A DNA stretch of 19,997 nt, taken from the UHGV virus genome UHGV-0061455; one strand, 5' to 3'. Both the position numbers and the translations under genes were made by a program. Each line of letters starts with the position of its first letter. Position 1 is the first letter of the stretch. This stretch comes from a virus. Of this stretch, positions 325 through 15,861 are shown piece by piece. The notes under the pieces are model-generated. The model worked only from the letters and a program-made list of their open reading frames with translations, ran no database searches and had not been told where the DNA came from.

Positions 325-3030
325 ATGGCCTATAGTTGGGAAGAGCATCTGTATCCCGCAGGGACTACTAGCATCTCAGTGAATATTCAGTACTTAGACC
401 GCTCTTATATCTACCTGTACGTAGATAACGAGGAAGTGCTTGACTATACTTGGGAGAGCGACGTGCGCATCCGGTTGGATGCTGCACTTACTAAAGAGAG
501 TAAGGTACTAATTGTACGCCGTACAGCGGCGCATTACCTGTACATTAACTTCAAGTCAGGTGCTCCGTTTATCTCTGAGAACTTAGATACTCAGAATACT
601 CAGTTCCTGCACCTAGCTCAGGAGATGACGGAAGGTCGTAGTATCGAGGGATTCTACGGCGATATTAATATGAACGGCTTCCGCATCATTAATCTGGCAG
701 CAGGAGAAGAGGCTACAGACGCGATTAATAAGGCGCAGTTAGATGAAGTAGATTCTAAGGTAAAGGCGTTGGAGGGTACCTTTATAGGTCATACTAATAG
801 TTACCCATGGTACACCGTTATTGTGTCTCCTACGAAGATCATTGCACCTCCTTACTCGTTTACTAAAGCAGCTGTATATTTGAACGGAGTATGTCAAACT
901 CCGGGATATTCTTACAGTGTAGATAATAATACCATTACCTTAGCAGAGGAAGTTCCCGCGGGAACGCACGTGTTTGTGCGATTAGGGGAGGATATACTGG
1001 ATGCTACCTACGTCACAGTAGTAACTTACGCAGACCTTATTCAGCGTCTTACAGACCCAGACGGTGCAGTTAACAGTCCTGAACTTCAGGTGGCTAGGTG
1101 GAGAGACAACGGTGATGTTCGAGGCTGGGGAGCTAAGGTAGATGGAGGTGCAAACGACTCAGGCGCATTTAATGCGGTAGCCGGTGCACCTGCTCACGTA
1201 CCTAACGGTACATCCCGATGCAGTCCTGGTGTGTTTTCTATAGCTGGGTTGACCGGAGAAGTGAACTCAAAGCTTAAGCAGGTTGCTCCTGCAGGTAACT
1301 TCCTATCCTTCCGTCAGCCTGACGGGGGACGTATCGCTAACCTAGATATTGAATCTAATAAGGGAGGGGTAGTATCTGCACAAGGTCACCAGATTGACGT
1401 TCAGGATGGACGTAACGTTACTCTGGAAAACCTTAACTTTAAAGAAGCAGAGGGAACTGGATTTTCCATCATCACTTACAGTAATACTCTTCCATACCAA
1501 GAAGGGTTCATTGTAAAGGGTATTCGTGGGAAATACAATACATCTGTAGCAAACGCCGATGCAGGCTGTGTACTGTTAGACCGTAATCGTAAGTCGCTGG
1601 TTGACGGCGTTATTGCAACAGGTTACCCTCAGTTCGGAGCAGTAGAGCTTAAGAGTGATGCTAAGTATAACATCACGTCTAATATTATTGGAGATAACTG
1701 TGAGAGTACAGTTTACTTAGGTACTGAAACAGAGGCTACACCTAACGCCAATATCATCAGTAACATTATCTCAAGCAAGCCTGGGTTCAGCGCTGTAGAG
1801 GTAGGCAGAGGCCGCCACAATTTAATGTCTAATGTGCTGGCTGACTATACAGAGTCTACAGCAACATCAGCACACGGTGTGACTATGACGGGCGAGTCTA
1901 ATGTTGCTGATAACATACTCATGATGGGAAGTACCGGGGTTAACTCCATAGGCGGCGCGCAGGCGGCATATAATGCAAGATTCCGTGGCACTGCAAGGAA
2001 CAACTATGCCTCTATCTTCCCACACTACACCGCAACGGGGGTCGTGACTTTCGAGGGAGGTACTGCACGTAACTTTGTAGAGATTAAACATCCCGGCTCC
2101 CGCTCTAGTATTTTCGCGCAGGCTTCCACAATTACAGATAAGGCGACAATTACCGGGGACGTTAACAGTAACGTAGTGCATGCACCGGCACTTGGTCAGT
2201 ACTTCGGCACCATGTCAGGAACCTTCGATTGGCGTATCAAGGATGTTACTATCCCATCTGGAGTATTTGTTACAGCCGACCGATTCAGGTTCATATGCGA
2301 TGGCGCAGTTTCCATGGCTGTTGGCGGGGGGACTACATCTCAGTTGAAACTGTTCAACTCAGACGGTACGGCACGGACACTATCACTGAATCAAAACCAG
2401 TCTATCAGGTTGGATATAGGTTCAGGGAACTACCTGCAGTTCAGCTCTAATGTCCTGACACCTAGTCAGACTAACGCTTACTCATTAGGTAATGCGTCAA
2501 AGGCTTGGGCAGGAGGCACAACGCAGACCGCGTTTACAGTTCTATCAGATGAACGTGCTAAGAGCAAACCCTTGACGCTTGCTCGAGGCTCGTTAGCCGA
2601 TATTATAACTTCAGACGGGGAGCAGGTATACTCGTCTGACGCGGTTCTAGATGCTTGGGCTGAAGTAGATTTGGTACAGTACCAGCTGCTAGATCGTATT
2701 GAAGCGAAAGGTGAAGAAGGTGCCCGCTGGCATTTTGGTGTTCTCGCCCAACGTGCAGTTGAGGCATTCTCCCGTCATGGTCTGGACGCCCATCGGTTTG
2801 CTTTCCTGTGCTATGATGAGTGGGACGACCAGTACGGTAAAGTTCAGGTTGGTGATGGAGAGTATATAGAGGTACTGGAAACACCAGCAGGTAACCGTTA
2901 CGGCATCCGCTACGAAGAGGCTTTGATTCTTGAAGCAGCACTTCAACGTCGTAACTATAGCAGGTTGGTTGATAGTTTCAATAAGTTGTCATCTCGTATT
3001 GATGCTATTGAGGCGGTCTGCGCACCTTAA
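325..3030 (+). CDS. Tail fibre/tailspike: T7 gp17-like N-terminal anchor, central beta-helix (pectate-lyase-like, putative depolymerase), C-terminal intramolecular chaperone (peptidase S74-like) domain
   Basis: 901-aa ORF; GGAG RBS 7 nt upstream of ATG 325. N-terminal ~150 aa resemble the T7 gp17 adaptor domain. Central region shows repetitive Asn/Gly/Ser-rich pattern typical of right-handed beta-helices. Motif SDERAK near aa 741 resembles the auto-cleavage site of endosialidase-type chaperone domains. Confidence 0.85.
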   Translation: MAYSWEEHLYPAGTTSISVNIQYLDRSYIYLYVDNEEVLDYTWESDVRIRLDAALTKESKVLIVRRTAAHYLYINFKSGAPFISENLDTQNTQFLHLAQEMTEGRSIEGFYGDINMNGFRIINLAAGEEATDAINKAQLDEVDSKVKALEGTFIGHTNSYPWYTVIVSPTKIIAPPYSFTKAAVYLNGVCQTPGYSYSVDNNTITLAEEVPAGTHVFVRLGEDILDATYVTVVTYADLIQRLTDPDGAVNSPELQVARWRDNGDVRGWGAKVDGGANDSGAFNAVAGAPAHVPNGTSRCSPGVFSIAGLTGEVNSKLKQVAPAGNFLSFRQPDGGRIANLDIESNKGGVVSAQGHQIDVQDGRNVTLENLNFKEAEGTGFSIITYSNTLPYQEGFIVKGIRGKYNTSVANADAGCVLLDRNRKSLVDGVIATGYPQFGAVELKSDAKYNITSNIIGDNCESTVYLGTETEATPNANIISNIISSKPGFSAVEVGRGRHNLMSNVLADYTESTATSAHGVTMTGESNVADNILMMGSTGVNSIGGAQAAYNARFRGTARNNYASIFPHYTATGVVTFEGGTARNFVEIKHPGSRSSIFAQASTITDKATITGDVNSNVVHAPALGQYFGTMSGTFDWRIKDVTIPSGVFVTADRFRFICDGAVSMAVGGGTTSQLKLFNSDGTARTLSLNQNQSIRLDIGSGNYLQFSSNVLTPSQTNAYSLGNASKAWAGGTTQTAFTVLSDERAKSKPLTLARGSLADIITSDGEQVYSSDAVLDAWAEVDLVQYQLLDRIEAKGEEGARWHFGVLAQRAVEAFSRHGLDAHRFAFLCYDEWDDQYGKVQVGDGEYIEVLETPAGNRYGIRYEEALILEAALQRRNYSRLVDSFNKLSSRIDAIEAVCAP

Positions 3031-3344: not shown

Positions 3345-3661
3345 TGAAGGTAAAACTTAACCCTTACCCCGTTACAGTAGATATTGTATTTAACCGGGAC
3401 GATTTCATTAAGCGCTACAAGAAGGTTCGTGGGTATTCCCCTGATATCGAAGGTTGCGGTGGGATGACTTCTTACCTATCGAGCGATGATTTGCTCATAG
3501 GGGTATTCAATTCCAAAGTGGGTACGCTTGTGCATGAACTTAATCATGCCCTGATTCACACTATGGAGTACGTAGGGTTAAGTATTACACCTCAGACATC
3601 CGAGGCGTACTGCTACTTAATGGATAGCGTGCTGGAACAGGCGCTCCCTAAACTCAAATAA
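3344..3661 (+). CDS. Hypothetical protein with HExxH zinc-metallopeptidase-like motif
   Basis: 105-aa ORF whose ATG overlaps the upstream stop (ATAATGA). Contains VHELNHALIH (HExxH plus a third His 4 residues later) and an upstream GCGG segment. Family unknown. Confidence 0.5.
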   Translation: MKVKLNPYPVTVDIVFNRDDFIKRYKKVRGYSPDIEGCGGMTSYLSSDDLLIGVFNSKVGTLVHELNHALIHTMEYVGLSITPQTSEAYCYLMDSVLEQALPKLK

Positions 3662-3672
3662 AGGAAGATACG

Positions 3673-5496
3673 GTGATTAGTCAAACTACACTGAACAGAT
3701 TGAAGCTAATATCTCAACGTACTACAGTAATGAATGACAGTCCCCGTACTATCCCCAAGGACCAGCGCGAGGAAGTGGCGCTTATGATGGCGGTAACTCT
3801 GAAGGATTTTAGAGAGTTCGCATACTTAGGTATGAAGTTCCTAGGTTTTGACCTTACAGAGATGCAGCGCGATATAGCAGACTTCATGCAGCATGGTCCG
3901 CGTAAGCGCATGGTAGCAGCACAGCGTGGTGAAGCTAAGTCTACGCTGGCTGCCCTGTACGCTGTTTGGCGGTTAATCCAGGACCAGAGTACCCGTATTC
4001 TTATTGTATCTGGTGGTGAGAAGCAGGCGTCTGAAGTAGCTACGCTTGTTATCCGTATGATTGAGACGTGGCCTTTACTATGCTACCTCAAGGCTGATAG
4101 TACCCGAGGTGATCGCACATCTTATGAAGGCTACGACGTTCACTGCGACCTTAAGCCTCTGGATAAGTCCGCTAGCATTGCGTGCGTAGGTATTACTGCG
4201 CAGCTGCAGGGTAAGCGTGCTGACCTGCTGATTCCAGATGATATCGAAACAACCAAGAACGGCCTAACGCAGACTATGCGTGAGCAGTTGCTGAACATCT
4301 CTAAAGACTTCGCCGCTATCTGTACTCATGGTGATACCTTGTACTTGGGAACACCTCAGACTAAGGATAGTATCTACAAAACCCTGCCGGGCCGTGGCTT
4401 TGAAGTTCGAGTCTGGCCTGGACGTATACCGAACGCAGAGATGCGTGAACGTTACGGAGAAACCCTAGCCCCGTATATTCAAACCCTCATCGACGCAGGG
4501 TACAAAGAGACTGGCTTCGGGTTAGACGGTACGTTAGGTGAGTGCACAGATAAAGGACGTTACAACGAAGAAGCGCTGATTGAGAAGGAACTGGACTTTG
4601 GTCCTGAAGGTTTCCAACTCCAGTACATGCTTGATACAACTATGTCCGATGCGCTGCGTACCAAGATTAAACTCTCCGATATGCTCGTGTACTCTGGTTC
4701 TCATGACTCTGCCCCAGACCGCTTAAGCTATATTGCTGATAAGCGCTACATGTTCGCAGAGGAGCATGAAGGTATCCGTGGCCAGTTACTGTACCAGCCG
4801 GCTAGCTATGGCGAGCACATGCTCCCGTACCAGCATAAGCTGATGGTAATCGACCCGGCAGGGTGCGGCGGGGATGAAGTGTCTTACGCCTGTGGCGGCG
4901 CAGCTAACTCATACATACACCTGTTCTCTGTAGGCGGCTTCCAAGGTGGCATTAGTACCGAGAACGTGGATAAGTTTATCGACATTGCTATAGAGATGGG
5001 AATCTCTGATATCTTCATCGAAAGCAACATGGGTCACGGTACAGTAGAAATGCTGTTCCAGAACCGCTTGAAGGAGCGTAGGCTTCCGGGTATCGGTGTC
5101 AGAGGCGGTTATAACACGTCTCAGAAGGAGAAGCGTATCATTGATACTATCTCCCCTGTTACGCGTCGTCATCGCTTTGTGGTGCATTCTAGGGCGCTTA
5201 CTGACGATATCCAAAGCTGTATGCAGTACAGTCGTGATAAGCGCTGGTTGTACAGTGCGTTCCAGCAGTTACAAGGAATTACCTATGACCGAGGCAGCCT
5301 TGCTAAGGATGACCGTGCAGACGCAGTGGCTATGCTTACTGCTGAACTGAACGGCTTCTTGGTAGAGGATGAGAAGGTTGTAGCGGAGAAGGAAATCAAG
5401 AAGAAGGCAATGGAGTTCCTAGCGAATCCGCTAGGGTGGACTGATGTAGATACCAGACCTAAGCGGCGAGGCACTGCATCGCGTATGAGTTACTAG
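3673..5496 (+). CDS. Terminase large subunit (T7 gp19-like)
   Basis: 607 aa; GTG start 5 nt after AAGGAAG RBS. Segments ILIVSGGEKQASE, ACVGITAQLQGKRADLLIPDDIE, LYLGTPQT and LMVIDPAGCGGDEVSYACGG align by eye with T7 gp19 ATPase and nuclease motifs. Confidence 0.9.
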   Translation: MISQTTLNRLKLISQRTTVMNDSPRTIPKDQREEVALMMAVTLKDFREFAYLGMKFLGFDLTEMQRDIADFMQHGPRKRMVAAQRGEAKSTLAALYAVWRLIQDQSTRILIVSGGEKQASEVATLVIRMIETWPLLCYLKADSTRGDRTSYEGYDVHCDLKPLDKSASIACVGITAQLQGKRADLLIPDDIETTKNGLTQTMREQLLNISKDFAAICTHGDTLYLGTPQTKDSIYKTLPGRGFEVRVWPGRIPNAEMRERYGETLAPYIQTLIDAGYKETGFGLDGTLGECTDKGRYNEEALIEKELDFGPEGFQLQYMLDTTMSDALRTKIKLSDMLVYSGSHDSAPDRLSYIADKRYMFAEEHEGIRGQLLYQPASYGEHMLPYQHKLMVIDPAGCGGDEVSYACGGAANSYIHLFSVGGFQGGISTENVDKFIDIAIEMGISDIFIESNMGHGTVEMLFQNRLKERRLPGIGVRGGYNTSQKEKRIIDTISPVTRRHRFVVHSRALTDDIQSCMQYSRDKRWLYSAFQQLQGITYDRGSLAKDDRADAVAMLTAELNGFLVEDEKVVAEKEIKKKAMEFLANPLGWTDVDTRPKRRGTASRMSY

Positions 5497-7267: not shown

Positions 7268-9013
7268 ATGACCCTAGTAAAGTTAGTTGAAGTAGAACTG
7301 GATACCTTGCACGTAGACCACTCTGGGTTAGTGCTTAATACGTACTTGAATGACAACGGGTACAACCTGCGTCAATGGGTAGACTCTGATGCAGCAGATG
7401 CACGAGAAGGAATGCAAGCTGCTATTGACTATATTGAGTCAGTTGGTGGAGGTACGTTAATTATCCCAGATGGTACTTGGATTCTTAACAGTATCAGTAC
7501 TGGCCCAGTGTCCGGGCACAGTGGACTCATTCAGCTTAAGAACAATGTAAGCATTAAGCTGGACGGTGTAGTTAAAGTAGGCCCTGCCTTAGCTAATAGT
7601 TCCTTCCAGGTCTTCGTCGGCTTCACTGATGCCAATCCAGCTAACTCTGGTAACTTGGACAACTGTCACATCTTTGGTGAAGGTAGCATTGACTTTGGAG
7701 GTTATGATTTTGCTGACTCAGGTCACTTGCGCAATGGTATCGCATTTGGTAAGGGGTATAACTGTTCAGTAGATGGCATTACGTTCATTAACGGTGACAT
7801 TACATGGGCTATAACACTTGGGTGGAACGGATATGGTTCAGACTCTTATGTCCGCAACTGCCGCTTCATTAACCTCATCCAAAGTAACGTGAACCGCGAC
7901 CATAGTACAGTGTACGTTAACTGCCCGTTCAGTGGGGTCACTGACTGCACCTTCCGCGCAAGCTCTGCGCGTGCCAAGGTAATAGCATGCACTGTGGAGT
8001 TACATCAACACGACACCTACTACCGCAATAGCAGCATCTCAGGATATACGCGTGGGTGCTATGTAGCGCTGCATGGTTCTGAGTCTGTTGGTGCAGGTAC
8101 GTACCTGTATAATGCCGAAGTCTCTGGGGTCATCGGAGATATCTCTGGTCAGGCCGTTATATTAGCTGCAGGCCCAGACGCTATAGCTACTACGCACATT
8201 CATGGCCTTACGGTATCTAACTGCCGGTTCACTGCTGGGAACTACCCGGGCATGTGCAGCTTCATTGACTTCTTCCAAGATGGTAACTCTGACTCAAGTC
8301 AGTACCTTATCAATCACGTTACGGTTAAGGGGTGCAGCTTCATCGTAGACCGCAGCCGTTCTCTTAGTGCAGCCATTACCCTGAACGGGAGTATTCAAGG
8401 TATCACCTTCCAGGATAACTTCTTCGATGTTAAGCAGGCTATGGTATCGGAACTCCCTAGCGGACGCACTGTGCAGTTAGAGCGCTTTAACTGGGATGCT
8501 AGCAATATCATCGGCGGCGATAACACTGGTACTCGTACTGGCCTGAACCTGTTTGAGACTCGGCGAGTATCCAGTATGTTGCGCTGTAACATTCAACTGC
8601 ATATGCGTCAGCCTAGTGTGGACCTGTACAGCTTTATGTACTTCCGTCCCGGTATCTCCTTCAGTGAGTGTACTATAGAGGTTCTACCTTACAACTGGGG
8701 TACTAGTTCAGGTAATGCACTGTTCTTTGAAGAGGGTGGCGTTCCTCCCCTGAACGTACATTGCAGCTTCCCTAAACAAGTATCTGTAACTCTCGCATCT
8801 GGTTCGAACGTGCAACGCGCTACGGTATCAGGTAACTACGCTTGGGTTGCCCGTGCAGACGCTCTGGATAGACGTGGTATTTCAGGTCAGTTCGATGCCC
8901 CTGCTAGTTACGCAGGTAGCAGCAACGGTCAGTTAACAGGCTTAGGTTGGCAGCTTGATGGGCTTCAACATACGTATGACCACAACGTGCTTCTTACAGG
9001 GCGCAGTAACTAA
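7268..9013 (+). CDS. Second tailspike, beta-helix polysaccharide depolymerase (pectate-lyase-3-like), no T7-type anchor domain
   Basis: 581 aa; AAGGA RBS. N-terminus DAREGMQAAIDYIESVGGGTLIIPDGTWIL resembles the start of pectate-lyase-fold phage depolymerases. Internal repeats (NCHIFGEGSIDF, NCRFINLIQSN, VTDCTFRAS, SNCRFTAG, KGCSFIVD) are typical beta-helix rungs. Confidence 0.75.
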   Translation: MTLVKLVEVELDTLHVDHSGLVLNTYLNDNGYNLRQWVDSDAADAREGMQAAIDYIESVGGGTLIIPDGTWILNSISTGPVSGHSGLIQLKNNVSIKLDGVVKVGPALANSSFQVFVGFTDANPANSGNLDNCHIFGEGSIDFGGYDFADSGHLRNGIAFGKGYNCSVDGITFINGDITWAITLGWNGYGSDSYVRNCRFINLIQSNVNRDHSTVYVNCPFSGVTDCTFRASSARAKVIACTVELHQHDTYYRNSSISGYTRGCYVALHGSESVGAGTYLYNAEVSGVIGDISGQAVILAAGPDAIATTHIHGLTVSNCRFTAGNYPGMCSFIDFFQDGNSDSSQYLINHVTVKGCSFIVDRSRSLSAAITLNGSIQGITFQDNFFDVKQAMVSELPSGRTVQLERFNWDASNIIGGDNTGTRTGLNLFETRRVSSMLRCNIQLHMRQPSVDLYSFMYFRPGISFSECTIEVLPYNWGTSSGNALFFEEGGVPPLNVHCSFPKQVSVTLASGSNVQRATVSGNYAWVARADALDRRGISGQFDAPASYAGSSNGQLTGLGWQLDGLQHTYDHNVLLTGRSN

Positions 9014-9466
9014 GTAATAAACCTGTGGGTGCCTGAGGGTGCCCTGGGATTTCCTGGGATTGCACGTGTAAACGTACACCTAGAAAATATTATACTCACG
9101 CGAGGCCCTCCCTCACCCGACCAAGGCGTCAATCCCCCCATGGGGTAGGCCTCTGGGAATTCACAGGGTGGGGTAGTGGGAGAGGGTGCTAATCCCTCTG
9201 CGTATACTGTGTGCTGCGCTAGACGCTCTGTATCGCTCTGTATCGCTCTGTATCGCTCTGTGAGTCTATAGCAGTACCTAAGGGACACTTCGTGTCTCTA
9301 CGCTGTACAAGGCAAGCCTCTGTGCTTCTCTGTGCTCTCTCTTATGAGGGCAGGAGGGGGCGCATGCTTGCCTATTTTTATGCACGCTGTGCAGTACTGT
9401 ATGCCGCTGCTATACCTCTGTGTATGCGCAGTAGCTTACCTCTTTTGCCTCTAGGCTATGCAATGC
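9014..9466. other. Non-coding genome-terminus or terminal-repeat-like region
   Basis: About 450 nt with no credible ORF between the last late gene and the first early promoter. Contains tandem short repeats, CTCTGT-type motifs, a CCCCATGGGG palindrome and C-rich/G-rich inverted arms. T7-like genomes have short repeat arrays next to their terminal repeats. Confidence 0.5.
9224..9261. repeat. Tandem repeat, about 3.8 copies of 10-bp unit CGCTCTGTAT
   Basis: Read directly: cgctctgtat cgctctgtat cgctctgtat cgctctgt. Related CTCTGTG motifs recur at about 9318-9345 and 9415. Confidence 0.9.
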
Positions 9467-9495
9467 TTGACGCAGGGTTAGCGCTGTGATATGCT
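9467..9495 (+). promoter_or_regulatory. Candidate sigma70-type early promoter P0 (TTGACG-N17-TATGCT)
   Basis: -35 TTGACG at 9467-9472, 17-nt spacer, -10 TATGCT at 9490-9495; about 100 nt upstream of the first early gene. Weaker -10 than the other promoters. Confidence 0.35.
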
Positions 9496-9601
9496 GATAG
9501 TAGTTGTAAGGTTCTTTAACAATCCGGGGAATCAACGACGCAGTGCAGCGAGTCACTACTCAACACTATATAGTAGGGGATATTGGAATACACTATGAAG
9601 G

Positions 9602-10345
9602 ATGCATACAATGCAAGAACGTAATCTTAAGAAGAGTAGTAAGCGTATAGACGGTAAGGTACGCAGTGGTTGGATAGATGTAGATACAGGGGAGTTCTTC
9701 AACACTAAAGCAGAGGCGAATGTAATGCGTAAGATGCGTAGTGATAAGAAGCCTGTAGCTAGGCGTAATGTAATAGCAGTAGCTGATGCAACGCTTAGAA
9801 TGAAGGATGTAGTGCTAGCTTGGGCATTCAGTAATGATTTCCAGCTTAAACATTACAACTTAATGAATGAGTACATGGAAGGGCGCAGTAAGGGCTATGC
9901 AGGGCTTAAGACTATGCAGCGTGCTGGTACTGTACTGGAAGCAGTTAACGTAGCTACAGCGTGGTACAAGCAGTATGACGCTAGGAAGGATAAACGCTAT
10001 CTGGATGATGCACTCTACACCAATCCTACATGGTGTGAGGATAGGGATTGGGTAGACTCTGAGCCATTGGATGAGCTTAGCTTAGAGATAAATGCATTAC
10101 TGGACTCTAGACATGCTGAGTTCTTAGCGAATGAGCCTAAACCTGAGCTTACTGCTAAGGAGTATGAGCGTAGTATACTCAGTAGGGATAAAGCTACTTA
10201 TATACACAGTAAGGGTGCTGTAACAGTGTATGAGGAGAAGCAGGAGAGTAAGAAAGGTTTAACTGAGCATCAACCTAGATGGTCACAGGATGAGTTGTTT
10301 GATTGGACGCAGCGTAACACTACACAACAATACATTAGGGGATAA
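9602..10345 (+). CDS. Early protein, function unknown
   Basis: 247-aa ORF, visibly more A+T-rich than the late genes. ATG 9611 has better RBS spacing (AAGGA 9 nt upstream) than ATG 9602, so the true start may be 9611. Confidence 0.6.
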   Translation: MHTMQERNLKKSSKRIDGKVRSGWIDVDTGEFFNTKAEANVMRKMRSDKKPVARRNVIAVADATLRMKDVVLAWAFSNDFQLKHYNLMNEYMEGRSKGYAGLKTMQRAGTVLEAVNVATAWYKQYDARKDKRYLDDALYTNPTWCEDRDWVDSEPLDELSLEINALLDSRHAEFLANEPKPELTAKEYERSILSRDKATYIHSKGAVTVYEEKQESKKGLTEHQPRWSQDELFDWTQRNTTQQYIRG

Positions 10346-10355
10346 GAGAATACAC

Positions 10356-10532
10356 ATGACTAAAGCAAACTGGCAGGGCTACAAGACACATGCTGATATG
10401 TGGGAGTTTCATAAGCGTATTAATGAGTATGCGTATCAGCGGTTAAAGGCAGAGCATGAGTTAGCAGAGCTAAGGCTCAAGGCGTACAGGGAGGGTAGTT
10501 TTGAATCTGAAGGGGATTGGAAGAGGTATTAA
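10356..10532 (+). CDS. Hypothetical small early protein
   Basis: 58 aa from ATG 10356 with AAGAG RBS-like sequence; same frame as track ORF 10290-10532, whose 5' part overlaps the upstream gene. Confidence 0.4.
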   Translation: MTKANWQGYKTHADMWEFHKRINEYAYQRLKAEHELAELRLKAYREGSFESEGDWKRY

Positions 10533-10576
10533 TGTGACAGTAACTTACCTCTTTTGAAATTAATTTAAAATAGTTG

Positions 10577-10605
10577 TTGACTTCCCTGATTTAAGCAGTT
10601 ATAGT
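10577..10605 (+). promoter_or_regulatory. Strong sigma70-type early promoter P1 (TTGACT-N17-TATAGT with A+T-rich upstream element)
   Basis: -35 TTGACT 10577-10582, exact 17-nt spacer, -10 TATAGT 10600-10605, preceded by aaattaatttaaaatagttg. Same architecture as P2 and P3a. Confidence 0.7.
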
Positions 10606-10629
10606 TCAAGCATAGTAAGGAGATGCAAA

Positions 10630-10770
10630 GGCAGCTGAAGGGGTAGCGGATAACCAAGACTACCCAGCCTAAAAGGACTTGAAGGACGTCGGTAACTGCA
10701 CCGCCTCTGCATCGAGGGAAGCAATGAGCTGCTAAGAGACAAAAGCAGCGCTAAGATGAATGTTCTTAGT
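10630..10770 (+). ncRNA. Conserved structured leader element, copy R1 of 3
   Basis: Begins about 18 nt after the predicted P1 start site. Conserved blocks GGCAGCTGAAGG, ATAACCAAGAC, AGCCTA-AAGGA, CTAAGAGACAA and GCTAAG are shared with R2 and R3. Hairpin A: GGGTAG (10641-10646) pairs with CTACCC (10660-10665) around a 13-nt loop. Hairpin C: CTAAG (10751-10755) pairs with CTTAG (10765-10769). The shared reading frame is broken by a stop in this copy. Confidence 0.5.
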
Positions 10771-10812
10771 TAAGCGTTACATCCTGTAGCGCATACTTAA
10801 GAGGATTTAAAT

Positions 10813-11127
10813 ATGAAGGCTTTAACTATCGTAATCTCCACGCTACTGATGACTGGATGCGCTACTAAGCAGTACCCACAAGCTACTGACCTTACTTTAC
10901 AGGAGCAGTCAGTGTTTGAATGCAAGGACGTACAGGTAGAATTAGCTAAGGCTTACAGTCAGAAGCTGAAGATTGATGAGACGGCAGGCTTCGATGCCGA
11001 AACTATCAGCGGATTCATGCTGGACTTTGGTATTGGTAATGCAATGGCTAAATCTAAGGCGTACGCTCAGGTTAACGGGCGTATCTCTAAACTGGAAGAA
11101 CTGAAGAAGGTGAGATGCAATGCGTAA
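10813..11127 (+). CDS. Early lipoprotein (signal peptide II with LMTGC lipobox)
   Basis: 104 aa; N-terminus MKALTIVISTLLMTGC is a classical lipoprotein signal. First gene after P1 and R1, with AAGAGG RBS. Confidence 0.7.
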   Translation: MKALTIVISTLLMTGCATKQYPQATDLTLQEQSVFECKDVQVELAKAYSQKLKIDETAGFDAETISGFMLDFGIGNAMAKSKAYAQVNGRISKLEELKKVRCNA

Positions 11128-11371
11128 CTTTAAATCTGAATTAAAAATCTGGTTCTCCGCTGCTGCTGTAGCTACTGCGCTGATGTTCTCCGTTAAGGGC
11201 GCTCAGGCTGCCCCTAACAGCATAGAACTGTGTAATTGGGGTAAGTGGGCGTGGCAGCAGAACATTAAGCTAGACGCGCTTGTAGACGCCTTAAACAGCG
11301 TTGAGGCTATGCCCTACGATGATAAGCTGATTGTTGTGCGCTGCTTTGTTGAATCTATGGAGACTATGTAA
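11120..11371 (+). CDS. Early secreted/periplasmic small protein (Sec signal peptide)
   Basis: 83 aa; N-terminus MRNFKSELKIWFSAAAVATALMFSVKGAQA-AP has a basic n-region, hydrophobic core and AQA cleavage motif. Start overlaps the end of the lipoprotein gene, suggesting translational coupling. Confidence 0.6.
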   Translation: MRNFKSELKIWFSAAAVATALMFSVKGAQAAPNSIELCNWGKWAWQQNIKLDALVDALNSVEAMPYDDKLIVVRCFVESMETM

Positions 11372-11547
11372 TGTTTGATTTAACTACTACGAACGAAGTG
11401 CAGACGATGACTAGCCGTGAGATTGCCGAGTTAACTGGTAAGATGCACACCCATGTAATTGCTGATATTCGTAAGATGCTGGCAGAGATTGGAGGAGAAA
11501 CGAAATTCCGCTCGTCCTACATATCGGCTCAAAATAAATTAAAATAA
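11371..11547 (+). CDS. Short Rha-like protein (phage regulatory protein Rha N-terminal DNA-binding domain only)
   Basis: 58-aa ORF below the track's size cutoff; ATG overlaps the upstream stop (TAATG). TSREIAELTGKMHTHVIADIRKM matches the signature N-terminus of Rha/antirepressor-type proteins. Its last codons are the A+T-rich upstream element of P2. Confidence 0.5.
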   Translation: MFDLTTTNEVQTMTSREIAELTGKMHTHVIADIRKMLAEIGGETKFRSSYISAQNKLK

Positions 11548-11550
11548 GTG

Positions 11551-11579
11551 TTGACGACGTACAGGGAAGTGCGTATAGT
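11551..11579 (+). promoter_or_regulatory. Strong sigma70-type early promoter P2 (TTGACG-N17-TATAGT)
   Basis: -35 TTGACG 11551-11556, 17-nt spacer, -10 TATAGT 11574-11579, preceded by aaaataaattaaaataagtg. Confidence 0.7.
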
Positions 11580-11636
11580 TCATTACATCGGGAGGCGAGA
11601 GGCACTAAGCACCTCCTCCCGGAAAGGAGAAGTTAA

Positions 11637-11775
11637 GGCAGCTGAAGGTAACGATGATAGCCAAGACGTTACAGCCTACAAGGAAGTGAACGAAATCCGA
11701 ACCCTACGGTCCCTGCAATCGGGAGAACTGGATGAGAAGCTAAGAGACAAGAGCTTCGCTAAGTGACTACTTAGT
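11637..11775 (+). ncRNA. Conserved structured leader element, copy R2 of 3
   Basis: Same conserved blocks as R1 and R3. Hairpin A: GTAACG (11648-11653) pairs with CGTTAC (11667-11672) around a 13-nt loop atgatagccaaga. Hairpin C: CTAAG (11759-11763) pairs with CTTAG (11770-11774). The 43 nt between element and ATG, including the AAGAGG RBS, are homologous to those after R1. Confidence 0.5.
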
Positions 11776-11817
11776 TAAGCGTCGTACAGTACGGCGCAGA
11801 ATTAAGAGGTTAAAGAA

Positions 11818-12237
11818 ATGAAAGCTACCCGTTCAAACTGGAAAGAAGCTAAAGGCCTGGTTAAGGTAACAACTAAAAGTATGCCTTGCCTTAAGACAGA
11901 AGCAGCACAAGACGAAGGTGCAGTTGCAATGGAACGTAAGCACGCCATGGAGCTTGCAGCGTACAACTCTGAAGCACGCCGTGCAGAGCTTGTAGAGCTG
12001 GCTAACAAGCCTGAAGGTACTGAAGCACGTAAGGTACTGCGTAAGATGCAGACCTTCACTACTAAGCCTCAGTCAATCCCCAGCAATGATTACAGCATGA
12101 AGCTCAGCCAGCGTCGTGCTAAATCTGAAGAATACAACGAGCGTGGCGAGCGTACTTGCCGCCCTTCAAGCAAGACCTGTCAGCGCATTAACAGTTATTT
12201 CCGCAGTAAGTCCTCTACACCTAAAGGAGTTAAATGA
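11818..12237 (+). CDS. Hypothetical early protein (basic, Lys/Arg-rich)
   Basis: 139-aa ORF with AAGAGG RBS; first gene after P2 and R2. Its first three codons match those of the lipoprotein gene after R1. Confidence 0.6.
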   Translation: MKATRSNWKEAKGLVKVTTKSMPCLKTEAAQDEGAVAMERKHAMELAAYNSEARRAELVELANKPEGTEARKVLRKMQTFTTKPQSIPSNDYSMKLSQRRAKSEEYNERGERTCRPSSKTCQRINSYFRSKSSTPKGVK

Positions 12238-12329
12238 TGGTGGGTCATACTAATCAATCTACTGAATGGGAACGTCAGCGTGAAGCTGAGATGTTTAAAC
12301 TGTATAAGGAGTTAACGAAATGGCACTGA
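12237..12329 (+). CDS. Possible small ORF (30 aa)
   Basis: AAGGAG RBS 7 nt upstream of ATG 12237; overlaps the start of the next gene. Small and unsupported beyond RBS and packing. Confidence 0.25.
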   Translation: MVGHTNQSTEWERQREAEMFKLYKELTKWH

Positions 12330-12643
12330 CCAAAGCCGCAGGCGACGTAGGTACTTATACCACAGCAGAGCAATCCGGTTGTTGTAAGGAAAATACTCAG
12401 TACAACGCCTGGAGGCCTCATTATGGGACACGCCAACCTGTTCCGGATGGGACTATGGTATTTATCCGGTATCGCTACGGGGAGCAGCCGAAGACTAGTG
12501 TAGACGCAAAAAATCGATTGTGGGTTTGGGATGGTACATACTCAGACATCGTGGAGTACAAGATTGACATACAGGAATGCAAGCATGAGCAGGTTGTGTA
12601 CGATGTGGATGACTTCCAGACACGATCGAAATGCGGGCGTTAG
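12320..12643 (+). CDS. Hypothetical early protein
   Basis: 107-aa ORF, AAGGAG RBS 8 nt upstream of ATG. Confidence 0.6.
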   Translation: MALTKAAGDVGTYTTAEQSGCCKENTQYNAWRPHYGTRQPVPDGTMVFIRYRYGEQPKTSVDAKNRLWVWDGTYSDIVEYKIDIQECKHEQVVYDVDDFQTRSKCGR

Positions 12644-12678
12644 CATCAGCAAACTTACTTCTACAAGAGAACGCAGAA

Positions 12679-12807
12679 ATGACACAGCATCAGAAAGCTC
12701 AGCAGTTGGCTAAGAACTACCACACTTTCCTGATTAACAACGAATGCAATGTGCGTTTCGCCTGGAACGCAGCAATGGCCCTTTTCAAACTGGAGATGCA
12801 GAAATGA
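12679..12807 (+). CDS. Possible small ORF (42 aa)
   Basis: ATG 12679; stop overlaps the start of the next gene (ATGA). Fills a gap in a tightly packed early operon. Confidence 0.25.
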   Translation: MTQHQKAQQLAKNYHTFLINNECNVRFAWNAAMALFKLEMQK

Positions 12808-12980
12808 TTAACCTGAACCCTGAACTGATTCTGATGCGTAATGATGAAGTAACTGTTGAGACGCTAGCCAAAGAATATGACGCTAGAGAACAGTTGATTG
12901 AGTACTACAAAGGTAAAGCTGAACGTGTAGGCCTCAGCTTCGAAAGCTACATTAAACGCTTCGGCATTACCTTACGCTAA
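12804..12980 (+). CDS. Hypothetical small early protein
   Basis: 58 aa from ATG 12804 with GGAG upstream; same frame as track ORF 12744-12980, whose upstream part lacks an RBS. Confidence 0.45.
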   Translation: MINLNPELILMRNDEVTVETLAKEYDAREQLIEYYKGKAERVGLSFESYIKRFGITLR

Positions 12981-12990
12981 GGGGGCAGAC

Positions 12991-13320
12991 ATGTTGCCAG
13001 TAAATGAAGTAATTGAACAGTACTGGCAGATGCTGGAGAATCAAAGCAGCTTAGGCCGTAAGACACTGCGAGATATTCCAGCAGAGCTACGCAAGCTTTG
13101 CCCTTTGAAGTGGTGTACTGATTGGCAGTACCGTGAAGGAATGCGCTTGCTGGTAGGTTATTACAAGTACGACGCTGAGAGGGCCTCAGAGGTCCTACAG
13201 CGTATGGAATTCGATGTAGTAAGAGAGTTGCAGCAGCTTGGATATGAAGGCGCTAAGCAGGCGTTTAAGGCTGCTTGCATTAATCATTATGAATGGCAGA
13301 CATCTTACAGAGGTATCTAA
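12991..13320 (+). CDS. Hypothetical early protein
   Basis: 109-aa ORF, AAGGGGG RBS. Confidence 0.6.
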   Translation: MLPVNEVIEQYWQMLENQSSLGRKTLRDIPAELRKLCPLKWCTDWQYREGMRLLVGYYKYDAERASEVLQRMEFDVVRELQQLGYEGAKQAFKAACINHYEWQTSYRGI

Positions 13321-13768: not shown

Positions 13769-14463
13769 TAAGAAACGAGCCAGATAAATGGACATGCTCT
13801 TGCTTTAGATGTAAAGGTTATCACGTGGAGCGTAAGCAGTACGCTCAATTAGTAGTACCTGAAGTACTGGGGCGTGAGTTGCCCGCCCCTCAGGACCTGA
13901 AGCGCCTGCCGGAACTGGATGCAGGGCTTCAGCAGTTCCTTTACGGATTCTTAATATCAAAAGGTATCTGGCCTGATATGGCTGGAGATGTTTATTACTC
14001 AGAACAATACAAGAGGTTAGTGTGGAAATTATCAACGGGCAGTTACATAGCGAGAGCATTGCACGAGTACCAGTTTCCGAAGTGGGTGATGCTGGGGAAG
14101 TCGTTACAATGGGCGCAGCTTGGGAATACTGGAACGATAACAGTACTGACAGAGGATTATCTCTCGGCGCTGAAGGTTCAGCAGGTCTCGGAGAAGTATT
14201 CTTCACAGACTGTTACGGCAATAGCATTACTGGGGACTCGCTTAGCTCTTGGGCTTAAGGCTCAGCTGATACGAGAAGGGAAGCCTATAGTGTGCATGTT
14301 GGACGGAGACAAGGCAGGTTACGCTGGAACTGTTCAAATTCACAAACAGTTACGTCCATTTTTAAGGGTAGGCGACTTCCACATTGATGGGCTAGACCCC
14401 AAGGACATGAAGTGTAGTCAAATAATAGAAGGTATAGCAGATGAATTGGGAAGAGTATTATAA
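13675..14463 (+). CDS. DNA primase (zinc-binding region plus TOPRIM domain; T7 gp4 primase-like, separate from the helicase)
   Basis: 262 aa. Cys cluster RFRCCGRTAAAVIRNEPDKWTCSCFRC near the N-terminus; VCMLDGDKAGYAGT resembles the TOPRIM acidic motif (T7 MFDMDEAGRKA). Start is uncertain because of the upstream overlap. Confidence 0.65.
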   Translation: MAEELWLRRARQLGVGQTERFRCCGRTAAAVIRNEPDKWTCSCFRCKGYHVERKQYAQLVVPEVLGRELPAPQDLKRLPELDAGLQQFLYGFLISKGIWPDMAGDVYYSEQYKRLVWKLSTGSYIARALHEYQFPKWVMLGKSLQWAQLGNTGTITVLTEDYLSALKVQQVSEKYSSQTVTAIALLGTRLALGLKAQLIREGKPIVCMLDGDKAGYAGTVQIHKQLRPFLRVGDFHIDGLDPKDMKCSQIIEGIADELGRVL

Positions 14464-14586
14464 GTACGATGAAGAGGTTCCCTCAGGACTTGTTAGAATC
14501 AAAGCTGTAAAGGGTACTAGAGTGGGTACAGAAGACTAAGGTTGAGTTACATGGTGAATTTGCCAACTTAAAGTAAGGGGCATTGA

Positions 14587-15861
14587 ATGGATTTTGTAAT
14601 AGCTAGGGCTATGTGTGAACGTAAGGTGCATGACCGCTTACGGGACAGTATCCCTAAGTCACTGCTTGCGCCGGATACGGTAGCACTGCTAGGATGGATT
14701 GAACTGTATTATGCAACCTACCCTGACTCTAACGAAGTACGCTTTGATGTAATGGATACGCTCCTTAATATGCGTGGGGCGCATTTACAGAAGGAGCAGA
14801 TGGATATCCTTAAGCATATGCTTAAGACCGTTCAGGGCGTTCCTGATGAGGCGGTAGCTGGTACAGTGCGTACGCTGAACGAGCTGGCCTACTCGGGTGA
14901 GATGGCTGCACTGGTCAGTAAGTATCAGGCTGGGGAAGAGATTGACTTTGTACAGGAAGCTAAAGCGCTTGAGCGCAAGTACTCAGGCGTAGCAGCAGCC
15001 AATGATTCACTACTTAAGTGGGAAGATGGGGGTGTAGACGATATTCTCGCGGCTACTGATGAGTCTGGTGGTCTTAAGCTTACTGTGTTCAGTGAGTTGG
15101 CTAGAAACATTCGCGGCTTACGGGGTGGTGATTGTGTTGCTGTTGCTGCCCCTGTTGATGCTGGTAAAACTTCTCTCCTAGCTGCTATAGTAGTTAACCT
15201 AGCGGAACAGATGCATGAGCAGAAGGAGATTTACGCAGAGCGTCCTATCCTGTGGTTGGTGAACGAGTCATTGGCCAAGCGCACTGTACCGCGCATCTAT
15301 CAAGCAGCTACTGGACTTACCTTGCAGCAGATTGTTGAGCAGCATAAAGAAGGTAAGTTTGCTGATAAGTACCTGAAGAAGGTTGGGACTTGGGATAAGA
15401 TTCGCGTTAAGGATGCGCACAGTATGAGCCTAGGTCAAATCTCTACGCTATTGGAAGAGATGCGTCCGGCTGTGCTGGTGATTGACATGGTCGCTAATAT
15501 AAAGGGAGGTAATGCCGAGTCAGAGTATCAGGCATTGGAACAGAAGTGGCAGCAGCTGCGTATGCTGGGATGTGAATATGATTGCGTTATCTTAGGTACG
15601 ATTCAGTTATCTGTTGAAGGTTACGATTGCATGTACCCGCCGCTGACAGCATTGAAAGGAAGTAAGATAGGTGTTCAAGGTGCTTTGGACTTATGCATCA
15701 TGATGGGACGTATGAATGTTAACGATCGTCCTGACATGGCTAACGTACGCGGGATTAGTACACCTAAGAATAAGTTAGGTAAGTCTGGTAGTACTGCATA
15801 TGTGCAGTTCCAAGTGGAGTTTAACGGCGGTACGTGCCAATTCAGTGAAGGTCTAGCGTAA
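14587..15861 (+). CDS. Replicative DNA helicase (DnaB/gp4B-like)
   Basis: 424 aa; AAGGGG RBS. Walker A-like AAPVDAGKTS, Walker B-like hydrophobic stretch ending in D (AVLVIDMVA), and position directly after the primase. Confidence 0.8.
   Translation: MDFVIARAMCERKVHDRLRDSIPKSLLAPDTVALLGWIELYYATYPDSNEVRFDVMDTLLNMRGAHLQKEQMDILKHMLKTVQGVPDEAVAGTVRTLNELAYSGEMAALVSKYQAGEEIDFVQEAKALERKYSGVAAANDSLLKWEDGGVDDILAATDESGGLKLTVFSELARNIRGLRGGDCVAVAAPVDAGKTSLLAAIVVNLAEQMHEQKEIYAERPILWLVNESLAKRTVPRIYQAATGLTLQQIVEQHKEGKFADKYLKKVGTWDKIRVKDAHSMSLGQISTLLEEMRPAVLVIDMVANIKGGNAESEYQALEQKWQQLRMLGCEYDCVILGTIQLSVEGYDCMYPPLTALKGSKIGVQGALDLCIMMGRMNVNDRPDMANVRGISTPKNKLGKSGSTAYVQFQVEFNGGTCQFSEGLA

What the first reader, a model, noticed from the sequence alone, without database searches (positions are those of the whole stretch)
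11371..11579. Truncated Rha-like DNA-binding domain ending inside promoter P2
A 58-aa ORF carries the signature Rha N-terminal motif but ends where full-length Rha proteins would continue for about 150-200 more residues, and its final codons form the A+T-rich upstream element of P2. Either the promoter-leader module inserted into an ancestral rha gene, or this is a stand-alone mini-regulator that could autoregulate the adjacent promoter.
Basis: partly seen in the sequence, partly recalled or inferred. Interest (0 to 1): 0.4.

Follow-up and report, generated by a model that had tools for sequence, protein, structure and literature searches.

The report
Deletion remnant of a phage rha gene
The 58-codon reading frame is the leftover front half of a phage Rha-type regulator gene that related phages carry at full length at this spot; a deletion joined it to the edge of an early promoter, and this is ordinary gene decay in a mosaic region.

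Summary
ORF 11371..11547 (+, 58 aa) matches Pfam Phage_pRha above the curated cut-off, but only over profile positions 1-50 of 91. It stops 3 nt before the -35 hexamer of a strong sigma-70-type promoter (TTGACG 11551-56, 17 nt, TATAGT 11574-79).

The window is the early region of a Slopekvirinae-like coliphage. Three relatives have a full-length 221-251 aa DNA-binding gene at the same locus that starts with the same codons. In two it is Rha-type; PAS7's has a different, non-Rha N-domain. All three have the same promoter downstream.

Homology to full-length Rha proteins ends exactly at codon 56 (nt 11538). Homology to the promoter module begins at 11531. The two overlap in an 8-nt AAAATAAA microhomology. 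No 3' half of rha exists elsewhere in the window.

The ORF keeps two helices and one strand of a predicted H-H-b-b-H-H domain. It lacks the nearly invariant downstream residues and the whole C-terminal domain.

A gene ending on this TAA, inside the A+T-rich upstream element, is also seen in two relatives, so that overlap did not arise with the truncation.

Most likely this is a recent deletion scar, probably still translated and probably functionless. A stand-alone autoregulator is not supported. Interest is low.

The parts
11371..11547 (+). 58-aa ORF, a truncated rha (Rha N-terminal half-domain plus 2 junction codons and a stop)
   Evidence: ORF. (PF09669, 35.8 bits, profile positions 1-50 of 91). 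(homologues align to residues 1-56 only).
11371..11442 (+). Conserved 5' anchor: codons 1-24, MFDLTTTNEVQTMTSREIAELTGK. Shared at the DNA level with the full-length genes of relatives. The left boundary of the variable cassette lies at 11442/11443.
   Evidence: window 11359-11442 is 89% identical to L001 3631-3713, and similarity then stops. Window 11141-11447 matches L002 at 76%; the same first residues occur in three different full-length proteins.
11443..11538 (+). Allele-specific remnant: codons 25-56 of a third rha allele (second HTH helix, loop, first wing strand and hairpin turn). It has no DNA match in the sister phages.
   Evidence: no match to L001; the closest relative, P0002/L039, is 76% identical as protein, shares a 29/30-nt identical DNA stretch, and continues ...QNK|RVVMFNLPKDLTITLVSGYS; five full-length Rha proteins all stop aligning at 11538.
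11531..11538 (+). Deletion or recombination junction: the AAAATAAA microhomology, assignable both to rha (codons Q54-N55-K56) and to the promoter module.
   Evidence: a three-way comparison. Identity to the rha allele is 31/45 left of the junction and 15/48 right of it. Identity to L001 P2 is 16/45 left and 46/48 right. The 26 nt 11531-11556 are identical to PAS7.
11531..11550 (+). A+T-rich UP-like element of P2. It carries a TAA in each of the three forward frames (11535, 11540, 11545), so any upstream ORF ends here.
   Evidence: Read directly from the sequence. AAAATA[AG][GT]TGTTGAC is conserved in all promoter copies. UP-element function is inferred, not tested.
11551..11579 (+). Core promoter P2 (sigma-70 type): TTGACG, 17 nt, TATAGT.
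   Evidence: 10 of 12 matches. The hexamers are conserved while the spacers differ in L002 and PAS7. Activity was not tested.
11580..11817 (+). Structured leader of the P2 transcript, up to the SD and ATG of the next gene. Context only, not part of rha.
   Evidence: 40 pairs, 14 with compensatory double changes, against 0-3 in the slid controls. No Rfam match.
11120..11371 (+). Upstream 83-aa early gene with a signal-peptide-like N-terminus. Its stop overlaps the rha start (TAATG), with GGAG 8 nt upstream, so the remnant is probably still translated by coupling.
   Evidence: The same TAATG junction to the full-length gene is present in L002.
10577..10605 (+). Promoter P1 (TTGACT, 17 nt, TATAGT), the presumed source of the transcript carrying the 104-aa, 83-aa and 58-aa ORFs.
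   Evidence: It is a paralogue of the P2 module. That this transcript carries the ORF is inferred.
11818..12237 (+). First gene of the P2 transcript (139 aa, no Pfam match). Conserved in relatives, and shows that synteny resumes right after the module.
   Evidence: (89% identical to L001 4860-5345).

Best explanation
The ORF is a deletion scar of an accessory early gene.

In this group of Slopekvirinae-like coliphages, the last gene of the P1 early transcript is a 221-251 aa DNA-binding or anti-repressor-type protein. It has a complete Rha domain in two of the three relatives, a different N-domain in PAS7, and a variable C-terminal domain (KilAC/ANT in one relative). It is followed at once by the P2 promoter-leader module.

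The gene is a mosaic cassette. It is bounded on the left by a conserved 5' anchor (codons 1-24) and on the right by the conserved promoter module. In the window's lineage the cassette carried a third rha allele.

An illegitimate, microhomology-associated deletion (AAAATAAA, 11531-11538) then removed everything from rha codon 57 to the left edge of the P2 upstream element. Because that A+T-rich element holds a TAA in all three frames, the remnant reads two more codons (L, K) and stops. P2 itself is intact.

The remnant keeps its SD and its TAATG-coupled start, so a 58-residue peptide is probably still made early in infection. It has only helix 1, helix 2 and the first wing strand of an H-H-b-b-H-H domain, and no C-terminal domain. 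It is most likely unstable or inert.

Shown: the truncation, the full-length genes at the same locus, the junction position, the loss of the 3' part, and the conservation of the promoter.

Inferred: the direction and mechanism of the event (deletion via microhomology), translation of the remnant, and lack of function.
For: (1) Domain truncated. PF09669 matches profile positions 1-50 of 91 in the ORF and 1-91 in the relatives' proteins, one of which adds PF03374 ANT/KilAC.

(2) Same locus, full length. L001 3642..4397 (251 aa) and L002 4228..4893 (221 aa) are Rha-type, and PAS7 2015..2770 (251 aa) has a non-Rha N-domain. All begin MFDLTTT, and each lies upstream of the P2 homologue.

(3) Sharp junction. 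All full-length Rha proteins tested stop aligning at nt 11538. Nearly all of the 150 best phmmer matches end at or before query residue 56. DNA identity switches from the rha allele to the promoter module across 11531-11538.

(4) The closest allele, P0002, continues past QNK with RVVMFNLPKDLTITLVSGYSAPLRLKIV, which is the missing strand and helices.

(5) A 50-sequence alignment shows nearly invariant L, GY, R, R and LE downstream of the break. The ORF has none of them.

(6) No rha 3' fragment is found elsewhere in the window.

(7) The short form occurs only in near-identical genomes, with zero differences across 11318-11750 among three contigs. Its 90%-identity cluster has one member.

(8) Other short Rha ORFs in the databases are decay products. 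P0003, for example, is a Rha-ANT gene cut by an in-frame stop.

(9) The full-length gene of L002 and an unrelated 55-aa gene of PAS7 both end on the same TAA 3 nt before the -35.
Against: The start codon, SD and translational coupling are intact, and the frame is open, so expression is likely. The helix-turn-helix core (residues 15-39) is retained. The form is present in phages sampled in several independent metagenomes, so it is at least not strongly deleterious. No full-length copy of this particular allele was found in a close relative, so the ancestral state is inferred from other alleles. The near-identity of all carriers gives no power to test for purifying selection or its absence.
Confidence: 0.75

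Rival explanations
1. Stand-alone mini-regulator. The 58-aa peptide is a functional minimal HTH protein. It would bind at or near P2 (autoregulating or timing early transcription), or act as a dominant-negative or decoy against a Rha partner.
For: The start, SD and TAATG coupling are intact. The two HTH helices are retained. The ORF lies directly next to P2. The form was recovered from several samples. A minority of the database Rha homologues are short: 9 of the 150 best representatives are 70 aa or less.
Against: Half of the conserved domain is missing, including nearly invariant residues, the second wing strand and two helices. The short form has no diverged homologues; its cluster has one member. 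The short Rha ORFs whose context was inspected are a nonsense-split gene (P0003), an 85-aa ORF ending in aberrant sequence just short of a complete Rha domain (P0002), and a protein named 'partial' by its source (P0006). The P2 core is 46/48 identical in OR844702, whose Rha differs completely after residue 24, that is, in the putative recognition helix. This argues against an allele-specific operator in P2. No inverted repeat of 8 nt or more is found around P2. The adjacency to P2 is also seen with the full-length gene of L002.
Confidence: 0.13
2. Insertion model. The promoter-leader module transposed or recombined into the middle of an intact rha gene and split it.
For: The module is repeated in the genome. 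P1 and P2 copies share promoter and leader, so it behaves as a duplicable unit. The break lies exactly at the module's left edge.
Against: In three relatives the same module already sits immediately downstream of the full-length gene. No insertion is therefore needed to bring it there. An insertion would leave the 3' half of rha downstream of the leader. Instead the conserved 139-aa gene follows directly, and tblastn finds no rha 3' sequence anywhere in the window.
Confidence: 0.05
3. Assembly or sequencing artefact: a chimeric contig or a collapsed repeat created the short ORF.
For: The window is a metagenome contig of about 4x coverage (its record name). The promoter module is repeated, and repeats can mislead assemblers.
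Against: The identical ORF and junction occur in independent assemblies from other samples, including a 43-kb contig (ERR10101420), ERR11457371 and UMAM01049034.
Confidence: 0.02

Closest known systems
Phage regulatory protein Rha family (Pfam PF09669). My own knowledge: the family is named after the rha genes of lambdoid phages such as phi80 and P22.
   Same: Significant match to the N-terminal half of the domain, including the MTSREIAELTGK-H-V--DIRK motif.
   Different: Only profile positions 1-50 of 91 are present. The second wing strand, the two C-terminal helices of the domain and the whole C-terminal region are absent.
Full-length early DNA-binding proteins at this locus in sister phages: XXQ42876.1 of Escherichia phage vB_EcoP_P64441 (221 aa, Rha + ANT/KilAC), the 251-aa ORF of OR844702, and WMX18779.1 of vB_EcoP_PAS7.
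   Same: Same genomic position, same first 8-24 codons at the DNA level, same upstream partner gene and TAATG coupling (P64441), and the same downstream P2 promoter.
   Different: They are 4 times longer. Their sequence after codon 24 is a different allele. PAS7's N-domain is not Rha at all.
Decayed Rha/ANT genes in other phage contigs, for example P0003 on ENA k141_529756.
   Same: A short ORF carrying only the Rha N-terminus, annotated PF09669.
   Different: There the gene is interrupted by a single in-frame stop, and the rest of the gene still follows. Here the rest has been deleted.
Early host-RNA-polymerase promoters of T7-like (Autographivirales) phages, such as T7 A1-A3 (my own knowledge).
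   Same: Near-consensus sigma-70 hexamers at the start of the early region, in several tandem copies, with A+T-rich upstream sequence.
   Different: Here each promoter carries a ~210-240-nt structured leader, and the promoters are separated by small gene cassettes. Activity was not tested.

Membership tests
Rha family (PF09669 Phage_pRha) | Sequence match to the family profile above the curated gathering score | tested here: met
   35.8 bits against a cut-off of 29.9, E=1.2e-08.
Rha family (PF09669 Phage_pRha) | Complete domain (profile positions 1-91; predicted H-H-b-b-H-H fold) | tested here: not met
   Only positions 1-50 match, while relatives match 1-91. The AlphaFold model of the closest allele shows 4 helices and 2 strands, of which the ORF retains 2 helices and 1 strand. 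The nearly invariant L, GY, R, R and LE are absent.
Rha family (PF09669 Phage_pRha) | Winged-helix DNA-binding fold | tested here: inconclusive
   Foldseek of the P0002 model against the PDB gives only weak hits (best E=0.13, TM about 0.3), though nearly all are MarR/PadR winged-helix regulators. No solved relative is found by sequence.
Rha-KilAC / Ant-type anti-repressor proteins | C-terminal ANT/KilAC (PF03374) or equivalent effector domain | tested here: not met
   The ORF ends at residue 58. PF03374 is present in the L002 orthologue. No such sequence is found anywhere in the window.
Rha-KilAC / Ant-type anti-repressor proteins | Regulatory or anti-repressor activity | not testable with these tools
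   Needs genetics or biochemistry.
Gene remnant (deletion pseudogene) | Full-length orthologue at the syntenic position in relatives | tested here: met
Gene remnant (deletion pseudogene) | Homology breaks inside a conserved domain and the missing part is absent from the genome region | tested here: met
Gene remnant (deletion pseudogene) | No purifying selection on the short form | tested here: inconclusive
   All carriers are identical across the ORF and the 90% cluster has one member, so there is no divergence to measure.
Sigma-70-type promoter (P2) | -35 and -10 hexamers with a 16-18 nt spacer, conserved across relatives | tested here: met
   10 of 12 matches with a 17-nt spacer. The hexamers are conserved while the spacers diverge in L002 and PAS7.
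Sigma-70-type promoter (P2) | Transcription initiation in vivo or in vitro | not testable with these tools
   No expression data are available.

The most novel reading that the evidence does not exclude
The half-domain peptide is kept because it does something. For example, it could be a minimal HTH or decoy made early in infection that binds phage or host DNA near P2, or that titrates a host or prophage partner of Rha-type proteins. That would make it a natural 'micro-Rha' created by deletion.
Probability: 0.1. Interest if true: 0.4.

Novelty: new member of a known kind. Interest (0 to 1): 0.12.

Why it matters
It matters little beyond annotation. The ORF should be labelled as a truncated Rha-domain remnant, not as a regulator. 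The locus is a clean small example of how mosaic phage early regions evolve. A variable accessory cassette is bounded by a conserved 5' gene anchor and a conserved promoter module. A microhomology deletion ends at the promoter's A+T-rich upstream element, which stops translation in all three frames. The finding also shows that Rha/anti-repressor-type genes are dispensable accessories in these virulent podophages.

Tried and rejected
- The first homologous-protein run timed out. The repeat worked but returned only 6 candidates.
- AlphaFold of the 58-mer without an alignment gave one long helix plus a second helix. I regard this as a single-sequence artefact and did not use it.
- Foldseek against the PDB gave no hit at E<=0.001.
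- A sequence search of the PDB with the full-length L002 protein gave only spurious RTF1 hits.
- An exact-pattern scan of IMG/VR for the allele-specific 24-mer found nothing.
- blastn of the ORF against E. coli complete genomes found nothing. Against phages it found only ~73% matches over the conserved HTH motif. No donor and no full-length copy of this allele was identified.
- The metagenome scan found one more identical copy and many full-length distant Rha genes, but no intermediate.
- Rfam gave no match in 9000-13000.
- The PAS7 paper says nothing about this locus. Literature searches for Rha/KilAC gave nothing relevant to truncated forms.
- I considered whether ending in frame on the relatives' stop codon implies selection, and rejected it. 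The element has a TAA in all three frames (11535, 11540, 11545), so any deletion would give a short ORF ending here.
- I considered the 72-aa GTG ORF 11548..11766 in the leader as coding, and rejected it. Its counterpart in L001 changes frame halfway, the P1 copy lacks it, and the region shows RNA-type covariation.

Full report
**What is there.** Window 11371..11547 (+) is an open frame of 58 codons: MFDLTTTNEVQTMTSREIAELTGKMHTHVIADIRKMLAEIGGETKFRSSYISAQNKLK. Its ATG overlaps the stop of the preceding 83-aa gene (TAATG), and a GGAG lies 8 nt upstream. Three nucleotides after its TAA (11545-47) comes a near-consensus sigma-70-type promoter: TTGACG 11551-56, a 17-nt spacer, and TATAGT 11574-79. 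A paralogous promoter, P1, lies at 10577-10605.

**Is the Rha call real?** Yes. Pfam PF09669 (Phage_pRha) scores 35.8 bits (cut-off 29.9, E=1.2e-08), but only profile positions 1-50 of 91 are covered. Eight PHROG families annotated as Rha, anti-repressor or transcriptional regulator match at E<=1e-4. In each case the match is to about 50 residues of a 205-431-position profile. A full phmmer scan of 1.84 billion representatives gives 999 hits at E<=1e-3. Of the best 150, 93 are longer than 150 aa (median 178), and the matched stretch in the query ends at or before residue 56 in nearly all of them.

**What the window is.** The contig is ENA ERZ1310330 NODE_1251. By DNA similarity it belongs with Slopekvirinae podophages of Enterobacteria: OR844702/OR850875 at about 88%, vB_EcoP_P64441 at about 81%, and vB_EcoP_PAS7. 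The finding lies in the early region, after the terminase and tail-spike genes and before the DnaB-type helicase.

**The same locus in relatives.**
- OR844702 (L001) has a 251-aa gene (3642..4397), and P64441 (L002) has a 221-aa gene (4228..4893, annotated 'DNA binding protein'). Both start MFDLTTT(N/T)(E/D)VQTMTSREIAELTGK. Both have the complete Rha domain (profile 1-91), and L002 adds an ANT/KilAC domain.
- PAS7 has a 251-aa 'putative DNA-binding protein' that starts MFDLTTTN. It continues with a different, non-Rha N-domain, and its C-terminal half is clearly similar to that of the L001 protein.
- At the DNA level, the window matches L001 through 11442 (codon 24), has no match from 11443 to 11539, and matches again from 11540 at 92% through the promoter and leader.

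The locus is therefore a mosaic cassette between two conserved anchors: the first 24 codons, and the P2 module.

**Where the truncation is.**
- The allele-specific part (codons 25-56) is closest to P0002, an 85-aa Rha ORF from an unrelated metagenome contig. It is 76% identical as protein and shares a 29/30-nt identical stretch, GGAGAAACGAAATTCCG(C/T)TCGTCCTACAT. P0002 continues ...EQNK-RVVMFNLPKDLTITLVSGYSAPLRLKIV, whereas the window reads ...AQNK-LK-stop.
- tblastn of five full-length Rha proteins against the window ends at nt 11538 every time. It finds no other Rha-like segment in the 20 kb.
- From the other side, 11531-11556 (AAAATAAATTAAAATAAGTGTTGACG) is 26/26 identical to PAS7, and 11539-11586 is 46/48 identical to L001.
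- The two homologies overlap in AAAATAAA (11531-11538). This is a microhomology of the kind left by illegitimate deletion.

**What was lost.**
- A 50-sequence alignment of full-length relatives shows a conserved block that continues past the break...QNKxxPxFxLPKxETLxLVSGYSxxLRxxIIDRWxELE. Its L, GY, R, R and LE are nearly invariant.
- An AlphaFold model of P0002 built with that alignment (pLDDT 88) gives helix, helix, strand, strand, helix, helix.
- Mapped onto the window ORF, only helix 1 (about residues 15-22), helix 2 (about 26-39), the first strand (about 47-51) and the hairpin turn remain.
- Foldseek against the PDB gives only weak hits, nearly all MarR/PadR winged-helix regulators. This is consistent with a winged HTH but does not prove it.

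**The overlap with the promoter is not new.**
- In L002 the full-length gene ends ...ISK TAA GTGTTGACA. In PAS7 an unrelated 55-aa gene ends ...ENKLK TAA GTGTTGACG. Both use the same TAA 3 nt before the -35.
- The A+T-rich element 11531-11550 has TAA at 11535, 11540 and 11545, one in each frame. Whatever lies upstream therefore terminates here.
- So 'the last codons form the upstream element' is a general property of this promoter's left edge, and the in-frame ending carries no information.

**Deletion or insertion?** The P2 module sits downstream of the full-length gene in all three relatives, and the conserved 139-aa gene follows the leader directly in the window. An insertion into rha would leave the 3' half of the gene downstream, and none is found. 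Deletion, or an equivalent illegitimate recombination at the module's edge, is the economical reading.

**Function?**
- In favour of expression: the start, SD and coupling are intact.
- Against function: the domain is halved. The short form is found only in near-identical genomes, with no differences across 11318-11750 among three contigs that differ elsewhere, for example by an HNH gene. Its 90% cluster has a single member.
- The short Rha ORFs I inspected elsewhere are not intact short genes: P0003 is a Rha-ANT gene with an in-frame stop, P0002 stops just short of a complete domain in aberrant sequence, and P0006 is named 'partial' by its source.
- Against autoregulation of P2: the P2 core is nearly identical in L001, whose Rha differs completely in the putative recognition helix (RHDNVKRTIEDLL against MHTHVIADIRKML). 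No dyad symmetry of 8 nt or more surrounds P2.
- I put the functionless-remnant reading at about 0.75, a functional mini-protein at about 0.13, insertion at 0.05 and an artefact at 0.02.

**Verdict.** This is an ordinary decay product in a mosaic early region, and interest is low.

**A side observation of more interest.** The duplicated promoter-leader module has strong covariation support for a structured 5' leader and no Rfam counterpart. It is listed under 'noticed in passing'.

Noticed in passing
window 10606-10812 and 11580-11817 (with promoters 10577-10605 and 11551-11579); L001 about 2677-2885 and 4476-4720: The ~210-240-nt leaders behind P1 and P2 are paralogous and fold into a shared multi-hairpin structure. 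There are 40 consensus pairs, 98.8% of cells are paired, and 14 pairs carry compensatory double changes, against 0-3 when the partners are slid. There is no Rfam match at E<=1. blastn finds the element only in this small phage clade, with up to 3 places per genome. The P2 copies carry an extra 5' hairpin (about 11589-11619). It could be an mRNA-stabilising or processing (RNase III-type) leader of early host-polymerase transcripts. That is a guess.
   Followed up: partly
window 11371-11442; L001 3642-3713; L002 4228-4299; L043 2015-2040: The first 8-24 codons (MFDLTTTN...) are conserved at the DNA level in front of three or four unrelated continuations: two different Rha alleles, the window's third allele, and a non-Rha N-domain in PAS7. 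This looks like a recombination anchor for swapping cassettes.
   Followed up: partly
window 11531-11550 and the equivalent positions in L002 (about 4880-4896) and L043 (about 2932-2951): The A+T-rich element upstream of P2 carries TAA in all three frames. It serves as the stop for three different upstream genes in three phages.
   Followed up: yes
window 10813-11127 and 11120-11371: The two early genes upstream of the remnant encode small exported proteins. The 104-aa product has a lipoprotein-type signal (…LLMTGC), and the 83-aa product has a cleavable signal-peptide-like N-terminus (…AQA/AP). Neither has a Pfam match. They may be superinfection-exclusion or envelope-modifying early proteins.
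   Followed up: no
window about 14440-14920 (L038 7071-7217 against L036 7073-7543): Otherwise near-identical genomes from other samples carry a 156-aa HNH_3 endonuclease gene just upstream of the DnaB-type helicase gene. The window has only a 32-aa ORF there. This is a presence/absence polymorphism typical of homing endonucleases.
   Followed up: no
window 9224-9261: A perfect tandem repeat of the 10-mer CGCTCTGTAT (about 4 copies) lies in the non-coding stretch between the tail-spike gene and the first early promoter-like site (9467-9495). This may be near the genome end or terminal repeat.
   Followed up: no
L001 3231-3640: OR844702 carries about 400 nt with two overlapping small ORFs (63 and 126 aa) between the 81-aa gene and rha. 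The window and P64441 lack this stretch, which is another indel in the same variable locus.
   Followed up: no
L041 4001-4666 (ENA k141_529756): A Rha-ANT anti-repressor gene in an unrelated phage contig is split into 64-aa and 144-aa ORFs by one in-frame stop codon (LLLDK*ETLILVSGYS). It serves as an example of how short 'Rha' ORFs arise.
   Followed up: yes
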